Shown here piece by piece: positions 27,339 through 37,553 of a DNA stretch of 64,000 bases. The translations under genes were made by a program, and so were the position numbers. The stretch covers positions 32,001 through 96,000 of the IMG/VR virus record IMGVR_UViG_3300005617_000004, one strand, 5' to 3'. This DNA is from a virus. Each line of letters opens with the position of its first letter. Position 1 is the first letter of the stretch. Under the pieces are notes generated by a model. The model saw nothing but the letters and a program-made list of their open reading frames with translations. It did not search any database and had not been told where the DNA came from.

Positions 27339-29816
27339 ATGGCAAGTCTCATTTTTGCAGTAGACGCCAACACCCTTCTCGACACTCCAACGGCCTCCGG
27401 CCTCGAGACGCTGGCCAACGCGCAGTTCGCGGCGCTGTTGAGCGACATCGTCACCGGCGTGTCGTTCACGACCGACGATCAGTCGCGCACCAGCCGCGAC
27501 TTGCGGCTGACGGTCACCTACACCGATGGCGCGGCGGCCATCTCGACCCCCTTCCTGGTCAAAGCCTTCACCGGCCGCACGGTCGCCGACGTTGCGGCCG
27601 CAGCCAACGCCTTCACCGCGGCCCACACGACCTACTTCTTCTCGGGCCTGTTCACCCAGGTGCTGACCAACACCGCACGTCGCTCCACGATCGTGTACGG
27701 CCTGATCGTGTACAACACGTCGCTGACCGACGGCGCGTCGCACTATGCGGGCAGCGGTGCCGGCGGAGGTGGTGGAGGCACCGTTGGCGGCTCGGGCACC
27801 GCCGGCAAGCTCGCAGTGTGGACGTCGGGCACCGACATCGGCGACAGCGCGCTGACCGAAGCCACCAACACCATCACCTCGTCGAAAGAGCTCATCACCC
27901 TTGCCACCGCTGCTGCCCGCGCAGGCTTCAACCTGCCGCACGGCACGGCACCCAGCGCGCCCGTCAACGGCGACCTGTGGACCACGACCGCCGGGCTGTT
28001 CGCCCGCATCAACGGCGCAACGGTGACGTACGGATCCGGCACCATCGGTGGCACCGCCGTGCTCAACCGAGTCGCGTACGGCTCGGGCGCCAACACCCTG
28101 CAGTCGTCGGCCAACCTGACCTACAACGGCACGACCCTCTCAGTTGCAGCCGGCGGTCGCATGGGCGTCGGCTCGGCCGGCCTGACGTCGAACGGACTGA
28201 CCCTCAGCATGATCGGCACGCTGAGCACCGCGGATCAGTCCGGGTTGAACGTGTTCGTGACGGGCAGCGTTGCTGCCACGGCGACGGTTACCGGCGTCGT
28301 GAGCGGCGCCGGCACGGCGACGTCGGCCACCACCGCCGACGTCATGGCCTTCTGGGCGCTGCCCATCACGCCGGGCAGCGGCAGCACCATCACGCGCGGC
28401 ACCGGCATCCACATCAGCGACCCGACGGCCGGCACCAACCGCGCATGGCTCTCGCTGGGTACCAGCGTCAGCGTACCCTCCTACGTGGGCAACTTCGCGA
28501 TCTACAGCGACATCGCGCAGCCGAGCTCGTTCGCGGGCACCATCGCCATTCTGGACACCACGACCACGTCGTTCACGACCGCGGGCGGCGGCTCGTTTGC
28601 CAAGCTGCTGCAGACGGTTGCCTCGGCCAGCGGGTCCGCGGGCTTCAATCTGCCGCACGGCGCTGCTCCTTCCGCGCCAGTCAACGGCGACCTGTGGACC
28701 ACCACCACTGCGTTGTTCGTGCGCATCAACGGCGCGACGGTGCAGCTGGGTGGAGGCGGCCTCACCGGCTCCCTGACCGCCACGCGCGTCCCGTTCGCCA
28801 GCGGCGCCAGCACCCTGACCGACAGCGCGTTCATGACGTTCAGCACCGCAGCAGGGCTGGTGGTCAACCGGTCGGGTGCGGCCAACGTCACCATGCTCGG
28901 CTCGAACGCCGGCAACACGACCATGACGGCGGTCGACTGCGTACTGATCGGCGACAATGCCGGCAACGCGATCACCTCGGGCGCGCAGTGCACGTTCCTC
29001 GGCAAGGACGCAGGCCTCGCCAACACACAGGGCAGCGGCAACACCTTCATCGGGTTCTCGGCCGGCGTGCTCAACGGCACCAGTGGCGCGCGCTCAGGCA
29101 TCACCGCGGTCGGCTACAACGCCGGCAGCATGAGCACCGGCGGCAGCAACACCTTCCTCGGTGCCACCAGCGGCGCGAACTCGGTCACGGGTACCGCCAA
29201 CATCTTCATCGGCCGGTCGAGTGGCGACGGCACCGGCACCGCCGCCAGCAACCGGTTCGTAGCTGGCTCCGACTCGTACCCGGTCGCCGATGTCTGGTTC
29301 GGCCAGGGCGAGACGAACGCGGCTGCGGTCGCGTGGACCCTGCACGGCACCAACGGCGCGGGCGCCGACAAGGTCGGTGGCGCACTTCAGCTCGCTGGCG
29401 GCCAGGGCACCGGCACGGGCGTCGGCGGCAACATCGTGTTCCAGACGGCGATTGCCGGCGGGTCCAGCAGCACCCTCAACGCGCTGACCACTGGCCTGAC
29501 CATCAATCAGCGCAAGACGGCGGACTTCGCCTATGGCCTTGTGCTGCCCGTCCGCACGGTGACCGCGACCACCGACACGGCCACCTACACCGACTACACC
29601 ATTCAGTGCGACACGACATCCAACAACATCGCGCAGACCCTGCCGGCATCGCCCCCGACCGGTCTCGTCATCAACGTGAAGAAGACCGCCGCAGGCAACA
29701 CGCTGACCATCACCGCCAGCGCAGGCAACATCGATGGCGCCGCGAGCGTCGTGGTGACGACCCTGAACCAGTCGTACTCGTTCCAGTACAACGGCACACA
29801 GTGGATCATCCTGTGA
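27339..29816 (+). CDS. Spike/fibre protein 1
   Basis: G/T/A/S-rich; 35-aa repeat at 27921-28025 and 28638-28742; NTFIG..AG adhesin-type repeats; shared N-terminal domain. Confidence 0.8.
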   Translation: MASLIFAVDANTLLDTPTASGLETLANAQFAALLSDIVTGVSFTTDDQSRTSRDLRLTVTYTDGAAAISTPFLVKAFTGRTVADVAAAANAFTAAHTTYFFSGLFTQVLTNTARRSTIVYGLIVYNTSLTDGASHYAGSGAGGGGGGTVGGSGTAGKLAVWTSGTDIGDSALTEATNTITSSKELITLATAAARAGFNLPHGTAPSAPVNGDLWTTTAGLFARINGATVTYGSGTIGGTAVLNRVAYGSGANTLQSSANLTYNGTTLSVAAGGRMGVGSAGLTSNGLTLSMIGTLSTADQSGLNVFVTGSVAATATVTGVVSGAGTATSATTADVMAFWALPITPGSGSTITRGTGIHISDPTAGTNRAWLSLGTSVSVPSYVGNFAIYSDIAQPSSFAGTIAILDTTTTSFTTAGGGSFAKLLQTVASASGSAGFNLPHGAAPSAPVNGDLWTTTTALFVRINGATVQLGGGGLTGSLTATRVPFASGASTLTDSAFMTFSTAAGLVVNRSGAANVTMLGSNAGNTTMTAVDCVLIGDNAGNAITSGAQCTFLGKDAGLANTQGSGNTFIGFSAGVLNGTSGARSGITAVGYNAGSMSTGGSNTFLGATSGANSVTGTANIFIGRSSGDGTGTAASNRFVAGSDSYPVADVWFGQGETNAAAVAWTLHGTNGAGADKVGGALQLAGGQGTGTGVGGNIVFQTAIAGGSSSTLNALTTGLTINQRKTADFAYGLVLPVRTVTATTDTATYTDYTIQCDTTSNNIAQTLPASPPTGLVINVKKTAAGNTLTITASAGNIDGAASVVVTTLNQSYSFQYNGTQWIIL

Positions 29817-30199
29817 GCTTTGCGCCCTTGAACGTCATCGGGTCCCTCAAGTCTGCCAACTTCAACTCGACGGCCGATCAAGCCATCCCAATCCAGCTGC
29901 CGGCCGGCTTCACCAAGTACGTGGTGACCGGGCTGGTGGCGTACAATCCCAGCACGAGCCTGACTACTGCGGCTGGAGGCCTGTACAACGCCACCAGCAA
30001 ACCCGCGGGCGGCATCCTGGTAGCCGCAGCGCAGGTGTACACCGCGCTCACCGCGGCGGGGAAGTTCTTGCCCGTGACGTTGGCCGCACTCGCTGGCACT
30101 GACCTGCAGACCGCGGCCAACGTGTACTTGTCGCTCACTCTCGCGCAAGGTGGAGCCGCTACGGCCGACGTCGCGGTCCTCGGGTATTTCCTGCCATGA
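29813..30199 (+). CDS. Small beta-rich virion protein
   Basis: GTG overlapping previous TGA. Confidence 0.75.
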   Translation: MSFAPLNVIGSLKSANFNSTADQAIPIQLPAGFTKYVVTGLVAYNPSTSLTTAAGGLYNATSKPAGGILVAAAQVYTALTAAGKFLPVTLAALAGTDLQTAANVYLSLTLAQGGAATADVAVLGYFLP

Positions 30200-30480
30200 C
30201 CTACACTCCTGGTGGAAGCGTGGCGGTCCAAGTCAACTTCGGCACGACGTCTAATTTCTCGGTGCGGACGACCGTCACCGGCGTGCCATGGGTCACCGCC
30301 GGGTCCCATTTCACCGTCACACCCGCGGGCAGCACCGTCGATCACGGCGTTGAAGACGCGGTGATCGAGGGCCTCACCGGCGGTGTGGAAAACCCGATCG
30401 CTGGTACCGGCTTTGACCTCGTCGTATCCAGCCCCAACGGCTCCAAGGGCCTCTACGCCTTCAACGTGATAGGAAACTAA
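30196..30480 (+). CDS. Small beta-rich virion protein
   Basis: ATGA overlap. Confidence 0.75.
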   Translation: MTYTPGGSVAVQVNFGTTSNFSVRTTVTGVPWVTAGSHFTVTPAGSTVDHGVEDAVIEGLTGGVENPIAGTGFDLVVSSPNGSKGLYAFNVIGN

Positions 30481-30481
30481 C

Positions 30482-36729: not shown

Positions 36730-36742
36730 CCCTGGAGGTTCT

Positions 36743-37093
36743 ATGAACTTCGGCGCCGCGTTCTCCGCTCTGTTCACCAAGGCCAAGGATGAGGTCGCCA
36801 AGGCCGACATCCCGCACCGCAACTGGTCATCCCTGCGATGGCTCGGCTTGCTGGCGGTGGTCGCGCTGGTGGTGTACAACGCCGCCTCGCACCTGCTGGC
36901 CGACGCGTCTCTGCAGCTGATCGCCCACTGCTTCGTCATCTGGCTGGTGTGCAACACGGTGACCCGCGCAGTCACCACCGCCGCCAACGCCTGGAGCCGT
37001 GTGCGCATCACCGAAATCCTCGACAAGGACAACGAGATCACCCCCGGTGAGCAAGCGATCCTCGAGAAGCTGGATGCGCAGCCGGACAAGTAG
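36743..37093 (+). CDS. Two-TM membrane protein (holin-like)
   Basis: GGAGG SD; 2 TMs and charged C-terminus. Confidence 0.6.
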   Translation: MNFGAAFSALFTKAKDEVAKADIPHRNWSSLRWLGLLAVVALVVYNAASHLLADASLQLIAHCFVIWLVCNTVTRAVTTAANAWSRVRITEILDKDNEITPGEQAILEKLDAQPDK

Positions 37094-37154
37094 ACCCCTG
37101 CCGCTGGCTTTTTCGTCAACCCGAGCCAGAATGGCTCGATCCTGAGGAGTCATC

Positions 37155-37553
37155 ATGGCACGCTCGTTCATCACTTCCGAGAAGCCCGGCTCTGCCGCCT
37201 TCATCCTGGACATCAACACCCAGCTGGCGCTGCTGACCGACCCCACCATCCGTGGTATCGAGTTCAACATCGACGAGCGCCAGCGGCGCAACCAGCGCCA
37301 GTACAGCGGCGTGATCAGCTACGACACCGCCGGCGCGTCCCTGGCGACCCCGTTCCTGCTGAGCGTGCTGGAGGCCGGCACCATGGCGGAGCTCAACACC
37401 GCCCTGGCAGCGTTCATCGCAGCCAACCCGACCTACTTCTACTCGCACTCGGTCTACAAGTTCCTGTACACCGGCGCCCGCGATCCCCGCTACATCGCCC
37501 TGACGCTGTACAACACGACCGGCGGCGCCGACGCCAACTACCTGCCCTTCTAA
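37155..37553 (+). CDS. Stand-alone homolog of the spike N-terminal domain (vertex/penton-like)
   Basis: ATPFLL, AFIAANPTYF, LYNT shared with 27339 and 33329. Confidence 0.75.
   Translation: MARSFITSEKPGSAAFILDINTQLALLTDPTIRGIEFNIDERQRRNQRQYSGVISYDTAGASLATPFLLSVLEAGTMAELNTALAAFIAANPTYFYSHSVYKFLYTGARDPRYIALTLYNTTGGADANYLPF

What the first reader, a model, noticed from the sequence alone, without database searches (positions are those of the whole stretch)
27339..37553. One docking domain shared by two different spikes and a stand-alone protein
Seen: the first ~135 aa of 27339-29816 and 33329-36148 and all of 37155-37553 align (N.Q.A.L, TY.DGAA.I.TPF..K.F.GR, AF.AA..TYF, YNT...G). In both spikes a poly-Gly hinge follows, then unrelated passengers (adhesin-like fibre vs beta-helix). 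Established: in PRD1 the spike P5 N-terminus is homologous to penton P31 and P5 has a poly-Gly hinge. Inference: a mixed vertex complex displaying interchangeable receptor-binding modules.
Basis: partly seen in the sequence, partly recalled or inferred. Interest (0 to 1): 0.7.

Follow-up and report, generated by a model that had tools for sequence, protein, structure and literature searches.

The report
Shared spike anchor domain, also stand-alone
Two different surface spikes of an unusual 110-kb soil virus begin with the same 135-residue domain, which the virus also makes on its own; it is a new, widespread anchor module onto which host-recognition parts are swapped.

Summary
The first ~136 aa of 27339-29816 and 33329-36148 and all of 37155-37553 are homologous (BLASTP E 7e-26, 2e-13, 2e-12). 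These are the only three copies in a complete 109.5-kb virus genome.

The domain has no Pfam or PHROG family, yet a profile finds 233 cluster representatives. It is almost always N-terminal and usually followed by a Gly-rich hinge. Passengers behind it are pectate-lyase/beta-helix depolymerases, collagen, S74 chaperone and lectin domains. Homology between close pairs stops at residues ~128-143, and the same passenger recurs behind distant N-domains, so passengers are swapped at the hinge.

The ~132-aa stand-alone form is an old clade of its own (30 of 35). It sits in a conserved gene block and co-occurs with fused copies in six of the seven relatives that hold the domain.

The AF2 model (pLDDT 93) is an alpha/beta fold, not a jelly roll, with no clear PDB match. 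So it is not homologous to PRD1 P31/P5.

A complex model supports head-to-tail association of the stand-alone protein with spike N-domains (0.74 against 0.12 for the best control).

The genome shows no terminase, portal or HK97 capsid. It has a conserved jelly-roll capsid candidate and many small membrane proteins, so a vertex location is plausible but not shown.

Verdict: a new anchor family. It is the same in principle as known modular receptor-binding proteins and parallels the PR772 P5/P31 penton. The scan had noted this same stretch once before (e1-6017540).

The parts
27339..27746 (+). N-terminal anchor domain of spike 1 (P0001 aa 1-136)
   Evidence: BLASTP to P0002 and P0003; profile hit 1-136. 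Its nearest relatives carry other passengers.
27747..27806 (+). Gly-rich hinge of spike 1 (aa 137-156, AGSGAGGGGGGTVGGSGTAG)
   Evidence: Translation; mixed GGN codons. Homology to P0005, P0009 and P0010 ends at aa 140-141.
27807..29816 (+). Passenger of spike 1: repetitive fibre with two copies of a GFNLPHG.APSAPVNGDLWTT motif and Gly/Ser/Thr/Asn-rich repeats. No known family.
   Evidence: Translation. No significant Pfam, PHROG or PDB hit. Repeats are shared with P0004, P0123 and P0068, whose N-domains lie in other clades. The motif also occurs in the 1005-aa protein of L012.
33329..33736 (+). N-terminal anchor domain of spike 2 (P0002 aa 1-136)
   Evidence: BLASTP; profile hit. It is 67-74% identical to P0153, P0152, P0006 and P0007 over aa 3-140 only.
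33737..33769 (+). Gly hinge of spike 2 (aa 137-147, GVGGSGGGGGA)
   Evidence: Translation; DNA.
33770..33823 (+). PSGPAGGDLSGTYPDPDV motif (aa 148-165), DUF5907-like
   Evidence: Dozens of hits cover only 8-22% of the 180-aa query, and most of them carry precomputed PF19264 (DUF5907), several with PF13884. From this I infer that they match the stretch of this motif. The motif recurs after the hinge in many family members. P0002 itself did not reach E 0.1 for PF19264.
33824..36148 (+). Passenger of spike 2 (aa 166-939), no known family
   Evidence: Homologous at E 1e-120 to 5e-54 to the passengers of P0049, P0142, P0172 and P0032, which sit behind N-domains of other clades. No Pfam or PDB hit.
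37155..37553 (+). Stand-alone anchor-domain protein (P0003, 132 aa)
   Evidence: AF2 pLDDT 93.1, alpha/beta fold. It belongs to the stand-alone clade. It has its own RBS. It is syntenic in L007-L016.
37567..39148 (+). Conserved neighbours of the stand-alone gene: a 188-aa tail-anchored membrane protein (37567-38133), a 197-aa protein (38143-38736) and a 142-aa membrane protein (38720-39148)
   Evidence: Homologues flank the stand-alone gene in L007-L014 and L016. TM segments. A role with the anchor domain is inferred from linkage only.
3552..4142 (-). Context: 196-aa jelly-roll protein, the best capsid candidate of this virus
   Evidence: 117 homologues at 47-93% identity, on contigs of up to 115 kb. 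AF2 pLDDT 81. Best structural matches are capsid proteins of SPV1 (Z 7.8), HCIV-1 (6.8), HHIV-2 (6.7) and P23-77 VP17 (6.4).

Best explanation
The ~135-residue domain is a virion-attachment and oligomerisation module of a previously undescribed family. In the two long proteins it anchors a receptor-binding or depolymerase-type passenger to the particle through a flexible Gly-rich hinge. The hinge is also where evolution exchanges passengers. The 132-aa protein is the same module without a passenger. It is an old, separately conserved paralogue, not a recent truncation. It most likely uses the same subunit contacts and the same docking site as the spike N-domains.

Two roles for it are possible. 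It may fill the places that a trimeric spike leaves empty in a ring of another symmetry, as P31 does beside three P5 N-domains in the PR772 penton. Or it may occupy docking sites as a passenger-less unit.

Shown: the homology, the family, the N-terminal position, the hinge, passenger swapping, the separate stand-alone clade, and the co-occurrence of both forms in relatives. Supported by models only: the alpha/beta fold and the head-to-tail contact between the stand-alone and spike domains. Inferred: that the site is a capsid vertex of a tailless, membrane-containing particle, and the stoichiometry.
For: Homology; only three copies in the genome.

Family: 233 representatives at E<=1e-3 and 132 at E<=1e-10. 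Among the 150 listed, the domain lies at the N-terminus in all but one (P0072), in proteins of 78-1336 aa; 35 are 120-150 aa long.

Hinge: a run of three or more Gly right after the domain in about half of the fused forms.

Passengers: PF12708 in 9, Phage_depo_C in 3, and collagen, beta-helix and Laminin_G_3 in 2 each. K1-lyase_C, Peptidase_S74, DUF5907 and NosD occur once each, all among 63 fused members.

Swapping: P0039 and P0050 are 98% identical over aa 1-128 and unrelated after. P0052 and P0060 are 93% identical over 1-143. P0002 and P0153 (from a 109.9-kb sibling genome) are 73% identical over aa 3-138 only. The P0002 passenger recurs behind N-domains of three other clades.

Stand-alone clade: 30 of 35 in one clade, SH-aLRT 99.

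Conserved synteny and co-occurrence: L009, L012 and L016 each hold a stand-alone copy and a fused copy 7-10 kb upstream. IMG/VR relatives G001 (1 fused + 1 alone), G002 (2+1) and G004 (1+1) do the same.

Fold: pLDDT 93.1, pTM 0.83.

Complex of 2 x P0001[1-140] + P0003: ipSAE 0.74, best of 3 controls 0.12. This mark was reached by 58 of 80 solved complexes and 2 of 110 mismatched pairs. Runs agree in at least 88% of contacts and partner pLDDT is at least 82. My own alignments were used, and the job is unlike the calibration. The partner touches both neighbours through opposite faces, and all three C-termini lie in the contact.

Precedent: the PR772 penton is 3 P5 + 2 P31 (PMC6750898).

Virion type: no terminase, portal or HK97 capsid in nearly all called ORFs or in six-frame searches. 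At least eight small membrane proteins lie around the stand-alone gene. There is a jelly-roll capsid candidate.
Against: No experiment or structure places any of the three proteins in a virion.

Residues conserved across the whole family are absent from the modelled interface (0 of 14, against 37 of 132 positions overall). So conservation gives no independent support for that interface.

A 2+1 mixed trimer would leave a trimeric passenger one chain short. The modelled stoichiometry is therefore not the biological one, and the model cannot tell a closed trimer from part of a larger ring.

Paralogues of any self-associating domain would be expected to pass such a test.

In G003 (87.6 kb, terminal repeats) two fused copies but no stand-alone copy were found.

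All known penton bases are jelly rolls; this domain is not one.

ATLAS labels of related proteins are 'Uroviricota'. Weak structural likeness (TM ~0.5, E >= 0.07) is to uncharacterised proteins of T1-like tailed phages. A tail with unrecognisable parts is therefore not excluded.
Confidence: 0.6

Rival explanations
1. Classical tailed-phage arrangement. The domain is a homotrimeric N-terminal anchor knob (like T7 gp17-N or the P22 gp9 head-binding domain) that plugs spikes into a tail or baseplate too diverged to recognise. The stand-alone protein is an adapter or a 'blank' trimer at the same site, perhaps carrying other receptor-binding proteins that lack the domain (for example the 492-aa lectin-like protein at 30482-31960), as gp37 does in K1-5.
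For: The passenger repertoire is that of tailed-phage tailspikes and fibres. The anchor-plus-swapped-C-terminus and adapter systems are documented (PMC6872550). In the complex model all three C-termini lie in the contact, as expected for a closed trimer feeding a trimeric shaft. Atlas relatives of neighbouring proteins are labelled Uroviricota. Weak fold likeness to N-terminal parts of T1-like phage proteins and to tail-tip proteins.
Against: No terminase, portal, HK97 capsid, tape measure, tube or sheath was found by Pfam or PHROGs over nearly all called ORFs, nor by six-frame family searches. The most conserved structural protein is a jelly roll closest to capsid proteins of membrane-containing tailless viruses. 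The gene block is rich in small membrane proteins. Coaxial trimeric anchors do not usually need a poly-Gly hinge.
Confidence: 0.2
2. The domain is not a structural anchor. It is a targeting or chaperone module, for example for delivery to the viral membrane or assembly site, or for folding of the passenger. The stand-alone copy would be a regulator or competitor that limits spike loading.
For: The fold has no informative structural neighbour. The stand-alone gene is embedded among membrane-protein genes. Family-wide conserved residues lie outside the modelled subunit interface.
Against: Known intramolecular chaperones of fibres and spikes are C-terminal (Peptidase_S74 occurs as a passenger here). 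An N-terminal position with passenger swapping at a hinge is the signature of anchors (PMC6872550). The domain has no signal peptide or TM segment. The confident self-association model suggests an oligomeric structural unit.
Confidence: 0.1

Closest known systems
PRD1/PR772 (Tectiviridae) vertex: penton protein P31 (126 aa) and spike P5, whose N-terminal domain (aa 1-124) resembles P31
   Same: [quoted passage not shown] The spike continues through a flexible or collagen-like stretch into a distal host-recognition part. In PR772, three P5 N-domains and two P31 form the penton (PMC6750898). Here too the genome looks tailless and membrane-containing.
   Different: There is no sequence or fold relationship. 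This domain is alpha/beta (b-a-b-b-b-a-b-b), whereas P31/P5-N are jelly rolls. Two or more different spikes share the domain here. The genome is about 7 times larger. The ring size, location and mixing are not known.
N-terminal anchor domains of tailed-phage receptor-binding proteins (T7/K1F gp17 aa ~1-140; P22 gp9 head-binding domain) and adapter proteins (K1-5/SP6 gp37)
   Same: A conserved N-terminal module of ~140 aa fixes the protein to the particle while C-terminal receptor-binding or depolymerase parts are exchanged horizontally. Passenger-less or truncated anchors exist (PMC6872550). The passenger families are the same: pectate-lyase-like beta-helices, S74 chaperone, collagen.
   Different: No detectable homology. 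No tail genes are recognisable in this genome. A Gly-rich hinge follows the domain. The stand-alone form is an ancient conserved orthologue kept beside the fused forms in all but one of the relatives examined (G003), not an occasional truncation.
Vertex spike complexes of viruses with vertical single jelly-roll capsid proteins (HHIV-2, HCIV-1, SH1, P23-77) and SPV1
   Same: The capsid candidate of this virus is structurally closest to their capsid proteins (Z 6.4-7.8). From my own knowledge, their vertex complexes are the most variable, exchangeable part of otherwise similar genomes.
   Different: Their genomes are 17-31 kb. No homologue of this anchor domain is known in them; none appeared in the PDB searches.

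Membership tests
PRD1/PR772 P31 / P5-N penton-domain family | All-beta jelly-roll fold of the shared domain | tested here: not met
   The AF2 model of P0003 (pLDDT 93.1) has two long helices packed on a sheet, with order E-H-E-E-E-H-E-E-h.
PRD1/PR772 P31 / P5-N penton-domain family | Detectable sequence similarity to P31 or P5 | tested here: not met
   A profile of 14 stand-alone members against all PDB chain sequences at E<=10 gives five chance-level rows and no tectivirus protein. PRD1 and PR772 entries are in the PDB, e.g. 1yq8, 1w8x (seen) and 6Q5U (named in PMC6750898).
PRD1/PR772 P31 / P5-N penton-domain family | Stand-alone paralogue and spike N-domain encoded together; spike continues via a flexible or collagen-like link | tested here: met
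   Two family members carry collagen repeats.
PRD1/PR772 P31 / P5-N penton-domain family | Mixed 3+2 pentamer at the five-fold vertex | not testable with these tools
   Only a 2+1 model could be run. It supports contact (0.74 against 0.12) but gives neither ring size nor location.
Tailed-phage RBP anchor domains (T7 gp17-N type) | Conserved N-terminal ~140 aa with horizontally exchanged C-terminal receptor-binding parts | tested here: met
Tailed-phage RBP anchor domains (T7 gp17-N type) | Homology to a described anchor family | tested here: inconclusive
   No Pfam or PHROG hit. No fold match above Z 5.5 or below Foldseek E 0.07.
Tailed-phage RBP anchor domains (T7 gp17-N type) | A tail (adaptor/nozzle/baseplate), terminase and portal in the genome | tested here: inconclusive
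   None detected by Pfam or PHROGs over about 130 ORFs, nor by six-frame searches with PF03237, PF03354 and PF05065. Very diverged versions cannot be excluded.
DUF5907 (PF19264) repeat | Match to the Pfam model | tested here: inconclusive
   P0002 did not reach E 0.1 in hmmscan. But many proteins that cover only a short part of the 1-180 query, taken to be the motif at aa 148-165, carry precomputed PF19264, and one family member matches at 9.6e-19.
Viruses with vertical single jelly-roll capsid proteins (Helvetiavirae) / Portogloboviridae (context of the finding) | Jelly-roll major capsid protein | tested here: inconclusive
   The 196-aa protein folds as a jelly roll. Its best matches are SPV1, HCIV-1, HHIV-2 and P23-77 capsid proteins, but at Z 6.4-7.8 only, with Foldseek E 2.5e-4 for SPV1.
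Viruses with vertical single jelly-roll capsid proteins (Helvetiavirae) / Portogloboviridae (context of the finding) | FtsK/HerA-type packaging ATPase | tested here: inconclusive
   No such Pfam hit. A Walker A motif occurs only in the UvrD and SNF2 helicases and in one 164-aa ORF at genome 15732-16226.

The most novel reading that the evidence does not exclude
This is a non-jelly-roll, alpha/beta 'vertex base' module that convergently reproduces the PR772 P5/P31 solution. Three N-domains of each trimeric spike plus stand-alone subunits would build a mixed ring at the vertices of a ~110-kb tailless, internal-membrane virus with single jelly-roll capsid proteins. That would be a lineage of bacterial viruses several times larger than any known of that architecture, with the ring accepting at least two different spikes.
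Probability: 0.25. Interest if true: 0.8.

Novelty: new variant of a known kind. Interest (0 to 1): 0.55.

Why it matters
The domain defines an unannotated family of at least 233 clusters at 50% identity. It marks the receptor-binding proteins of a widespread, uncultured group of 85-115-kb viruses from soil, rhizosphere and groundwater. With it, their host-recognition genes can be found by sequence, and the exact swap point (the Gly hinge) is known.

The conserved stand-alone paralogue is a testable case of how a trimeric spike may be fitted to a site of other symmetry. That question has so far been answered structurally only for PR772 and adenovirus.

It also adds one more indication that these viruses are not ordinary tailed phages.

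Tried and rejected
Pfam and PHROGs on the three proteins gave nothing significant.

Phage GenBank records gave no DNA or protein match.

IMG/VR scans with the N-domain alignments found no relative, and alignment A3 was too diverse to scan with. GTDB genome scans found none.

The search for homologous proteins with 'longer' lengths found none; candidates were crowded out.

Fold searches of the N-domain model gave no clear match. Foldseek PDB had nothing at E<=1e-3. VIA wide gave a best Z of 5.5, to a fungal chitinase-modifying protein, with tail-tip proteins at Z ~3.3. BFVD gave a best E of 0.066. This does not show that the fold is new.

Stop-codon recoding was considered as an explanation for the missing hallmark genes, because a tRNA with anticodon CTA is present. 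Reading TAG, TGA or TAA through mostly just joins neighbouring genes, so I rejected it.

I expected the conserved AF..AN..YF motif to mark the subunit interface. The family-wide conserved residues are all outside the modelled interface, so I dropped that argument.

Expression: no RNA holder was listed.

Strain comparison for a recent spike swap: contigs of four runs are collinear with the window across both spikes, and no supported replacement was seen.

Literature searches for this virus group and for DUF5907 found nothing relevant.

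
Full report
**1. The observation**

The window is bases 32001-96000 of a complete 109,520-bp IMG/VR virus record with 110-bp direct terminal repeats.
- P0001, 825 aa, 27339-29816
- P0002, 939 aa, 33329-36148
- P0003, 132 aa, 37155-37553

Only their first ~136 residues are alike:
- P0001/P0002: 47% identity, E 7e-26
- P0001/P0003: 33%, E 2e-13
- P0002/P0003: 33%, E 2e-12

The three-way alignment has 24 invariant columns. A six-frame search finds no fourth copy in the genome.

Both long proteins have a Gly run directly after the domain. 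Mixed GGN codons encode it, so selection acts on the protein and not on a slippery tract. The short gene has its own Shine-Dalgarno sequence.

Contigs of other studies (rhizosphere and groundwater) carry the same genes in the same order at about 96-99% identity. One contig spans 26741-39550.

**2. A large unannotated family**

None of the three proteins matches Pfam or PHROGs. A profile of the three N-domains against 1.84 billion cluster representatives finds 233 proteins at E<=1e-3 and 132 at E<=1e-10.

Among the 150 listed, the domain starts within the first ~30 residues in all but one (P0072). Protein lengths run from 78 to 1336 aa, and 35 are 120-150 aa long. About half of the fused forms have a run of three or more Gly right after the domain. 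Many then continue with the motif PSGPAGGDLSGTYPNP.V. That motif corresponds to the Pfam repeat DUF5907, judged from the precomputed domains of proteins that cover only a short part of the query.

**3. Passengers and their exchange**

Among 63 fused members of 340 aa or more, Pfam finds:
- pectate-lyase-like PF12708 in 9
- Phage_depo_C in 3
- collagen, beta-helix and Laminin_G_3 in 2 each
- K1-lyase_C, Peptidase_S74, DUF5907, NosD and others once each

This is the repertoire of phage depolymerases, fibres and lectin-like receptor binders.

Similarity between proteins with nearly identical N-domains stops at the hinge:
- P0039/P0050: 98% over aa 1-128, nothing after
- P0052/P0060: 93% over aa 1-143
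- P0112/P0124: 84% over aa 1-137
- P0040/P0097: 78% over aa 1-139
- P0002 and its counterpart P0153 from a 109,867-bp sibling genome: 73% over aa 3-138 only

Conversely, the passenger of P0002 is homologous (E 1e-120 to 5e-54) to the passengers of P0049, P0142, P0172 and P0032, whose N-domains belong to other clades. The repeats of P0001 recur in P0123 and P0068. So the domain and the passengers are shuffled against each other, with the hinge as the junction.

**4. The stand-alone form**

On a tree of 147 N-domains, 30 of the 35 short proteins fall in one clade (SH-aLRT 99). That clade holds only two longer members; one of them (P0072) has the domain at its C-terminus. The other five short ones are scattered and may be fragments.

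P0001 and P0002 lie in two different fused clades. Each has an orthologue in the sibling genome.

In metagenome relatives the stand-alone gene always lies beside homologues of 38143-38736 and 38720-39148. In the three long loci a fused copy lies 7-10 kb upstream.

IMG/VR records that share the capsid candidate also carry the family:
- G001: 1 fused + 1 alone
- G002: 2 + 1
- G004: 1 + 1
- G003: 2 fused, none alone found

L009 has two tandem stand-alone copies. The first ends in GGGGGGGV followed by a stop, that is, a hinge with no passenger. The short protein is therefore an old, conserved component kept next to the fused forms, not debris.

**5. Structure**

AF2 with an 82-row alignment gives a confident model of P0003 (pLDDT 93.1, pTM 0.83). 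Strands and helices come in the order b-a-b-b-b-a-b-b plus a short C-terminal helix. This is not a jelly roll.

Foldseek against the PDB, an exhaustive VIA-align search and BFVD give no clear relative. The best values are Z 5.5 and E 0.066. The weak rows include tail-tip proteins and uncharacterised proteins of T1-like phages. A profile against all PDB sequences finds nothing.

**6. Association**

One complex job was run: two copies of P0001 aa 1-140 plus P0003 as the partner, each with its alignment. The verdict was 'supports binding':
- score 0.74, best of three controls 0.12
- this mark was reached by 58 of 80 solved complexes and 2 of 110 mismatched pairs
- the runs agree in at least 88% of contacts, and partner pLDDT is at least 82
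- my own alignments were used, and the job is unlike the calibration

The partner touches one neighbour with strands 1-3 and the other with helix 2 and the following strand. That is a head-to-tail arrangement. The C-termini of all three chains lie in the contact.

This cannot distinguish a closed trimer from part of a larger ring. A 2+1 trimer cannot be the biological unit of a trimeric passenger. Residues conserved across the whole family are absent from this interface (0 of 14), so conservation adds no support.

**7. What kind of virus**

Pfam and PHROGs over about 130 ORFs find the following:
- replication and modification genes: family-A polymerase in a 1632-aa protein, SNF2 and UvrD helicases, methyltransferases, HNH endonucleases
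- glycosyltransferases
- a transglutaminase-like 855-aa protein

They find no terminase, portal, HK97 capsid or tail protein. Six-frame searches with PF03237, PF03354 and PF05065 are empty. Stop-codon recoding does not explain this.

The block 32694-41238 encodes at least eight small proteins with one or more hydrophobic helices, several of them tail-anchored with basic ends.

A 196-aa protein (3552-4142, minus strand) is the most conserved protein seen: 117 homologues at 47-93% identity, on contigs of up to 115 kb. It has two paralogues in the genome. It folds as a jelly roll (pLDDT 81). Its best structural matches are:
- SPV1 capsid protein: Foldseek E 2.5e-4; Z 7.8, 136 aligned, rmsd 3.9
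- HCIV-1: Z 6.8
- HHIV-2: Z 6.7
- P23-77 VP17: Z 6.4

These Z values are modest.

Together, these results make a tailless, internal-membrane particle the more likely reading, as earlier notes of this scan also proposed. It is not shown. Atlas labels of related proteins read 'Uroviricota'.

**8. Comparison with what is known**

The principle is well known from tailed phages: a conserved N-terminal anchor of ~140 aa, with exchanged receptor-binding parts and occasional passenger-less adapters (T7/K1F gp17, K1-5 gp37, Klebsiella phages; PMC6872550).

The closest functional parallel is the tectivirus vertex. P31 (126 aa) resembles the N-domain of the trimeric spike P5. In PR772 the penton is three P5 plus two P31, which resolves the symmetry mismatch (PMC6750898; the earlier hypothesis is in PMC5850374).

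This case shares the genetic layout, the sizes, the flexible link and the likely type of particle. It differs in fold and sequence, so it is at most convergent. It also differs in serving at least two different spikes.

I file it as a new variant of a known kind. The domain family and its stand-alone partner are new. The logic is not.

**9. Limits**

Location, ring size and stoichiometry remain open.

Noticed in passing
window 3552-4142 (-), 5300-6349 (+), 18005-18856 (-): A 196-aa jelly-roll protein is the most conserved protein of this virus group (117 homologues at 47-93% identity). Its best structural matches are capsid proteins of SPV1, HCIV-1, HHIV-2 and P23-77. Two paralogues lie in the same genome, one fused behind a zinc-finger/RHH-like N-terminal part.
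   Followed up: partly
whole genome G000 (109,520 bp): No terminase, portal, HK97 capsid or tail gene is detectable by Pfam, PHROGs or six-frame family searches in a complete genome with terminal repeats. The only canonical Walker A motifs are in the UvrD and SNF2 helicases and in a 164-aa ORF at genome 15732-16226.
   Followed up: partly
window 32694-41238: A run of small proteins with single hydrophobic helices and basic C-termini (e.g. 37567-38133, 39864-40250, 40255-40497, 40858-41238). This is typical of internal-membrane viruses rather than tailed phages.
   Followed up: partly
window 2539-2615: A tRNA with anticodon CTA (called tRNA-Pyl by ARAGORN) is a potential amber suppressor, next to tRNA-Met and tRNA-Leu(TAA). 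TAG ends 17 of 129 called genes. No convincing in-frame TAG genes were found, except possibly a 728-aa frame with 10 TAG codons, which starts 779 bases upstream of the window and ends at window base 1407.
   Followed up: partly
structural blocks, window 3552-20680 and 21225-41450: Stop-codon use differs by block. TAA ends 22 of 47 genes in the two structural blocks but only 6 of 70 elsewhere, in a 65% G+C genome.
   Followed up: no
L009:9531-10399: Two tandem stand-alone anchor genes in a relative. The first ends with GGGGGGGV and a stop, that is, a hinge without a passenger. It may be a footprint of passenger loss or a landing pad for a new one.
   Followed up: partly
window 30482-31960: A 492-aa protein between the two spikes has many viral relatives in the ESM Atlas and weak likeness to GH16/concanavalin-like folds. 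It lacks the anchor domain and may be a further receptor-binding protein attached in another way.
   Followed up: partly
window 37567-38133 and L007, L009, L010: The gene right after the stand-alone gene keeps a conserved 134-aa N-terminal part. Its membrane-spanning C-terminal part varies from about 50 to about 200 aa among relatives.
   Followed up: no
window 24010-27278: A Cys-rich protein with a run of 45 Thr/Ser residues is followed by GT2 and GT4 glycosyltransferases (the GT4 with N-terminal membrane helices). These lie directly upstream of spike 1 and are conserved in L009 and L016. The Thr tract varies in length between samples (a 12-base insertion at 24390 in one run).
   Followed up: partly
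genome 26000-32000 (just left of the window): A stretch of about 6 kb with lower G+C (55-60% against 65%) and few long ORFs.
   Followed up: no
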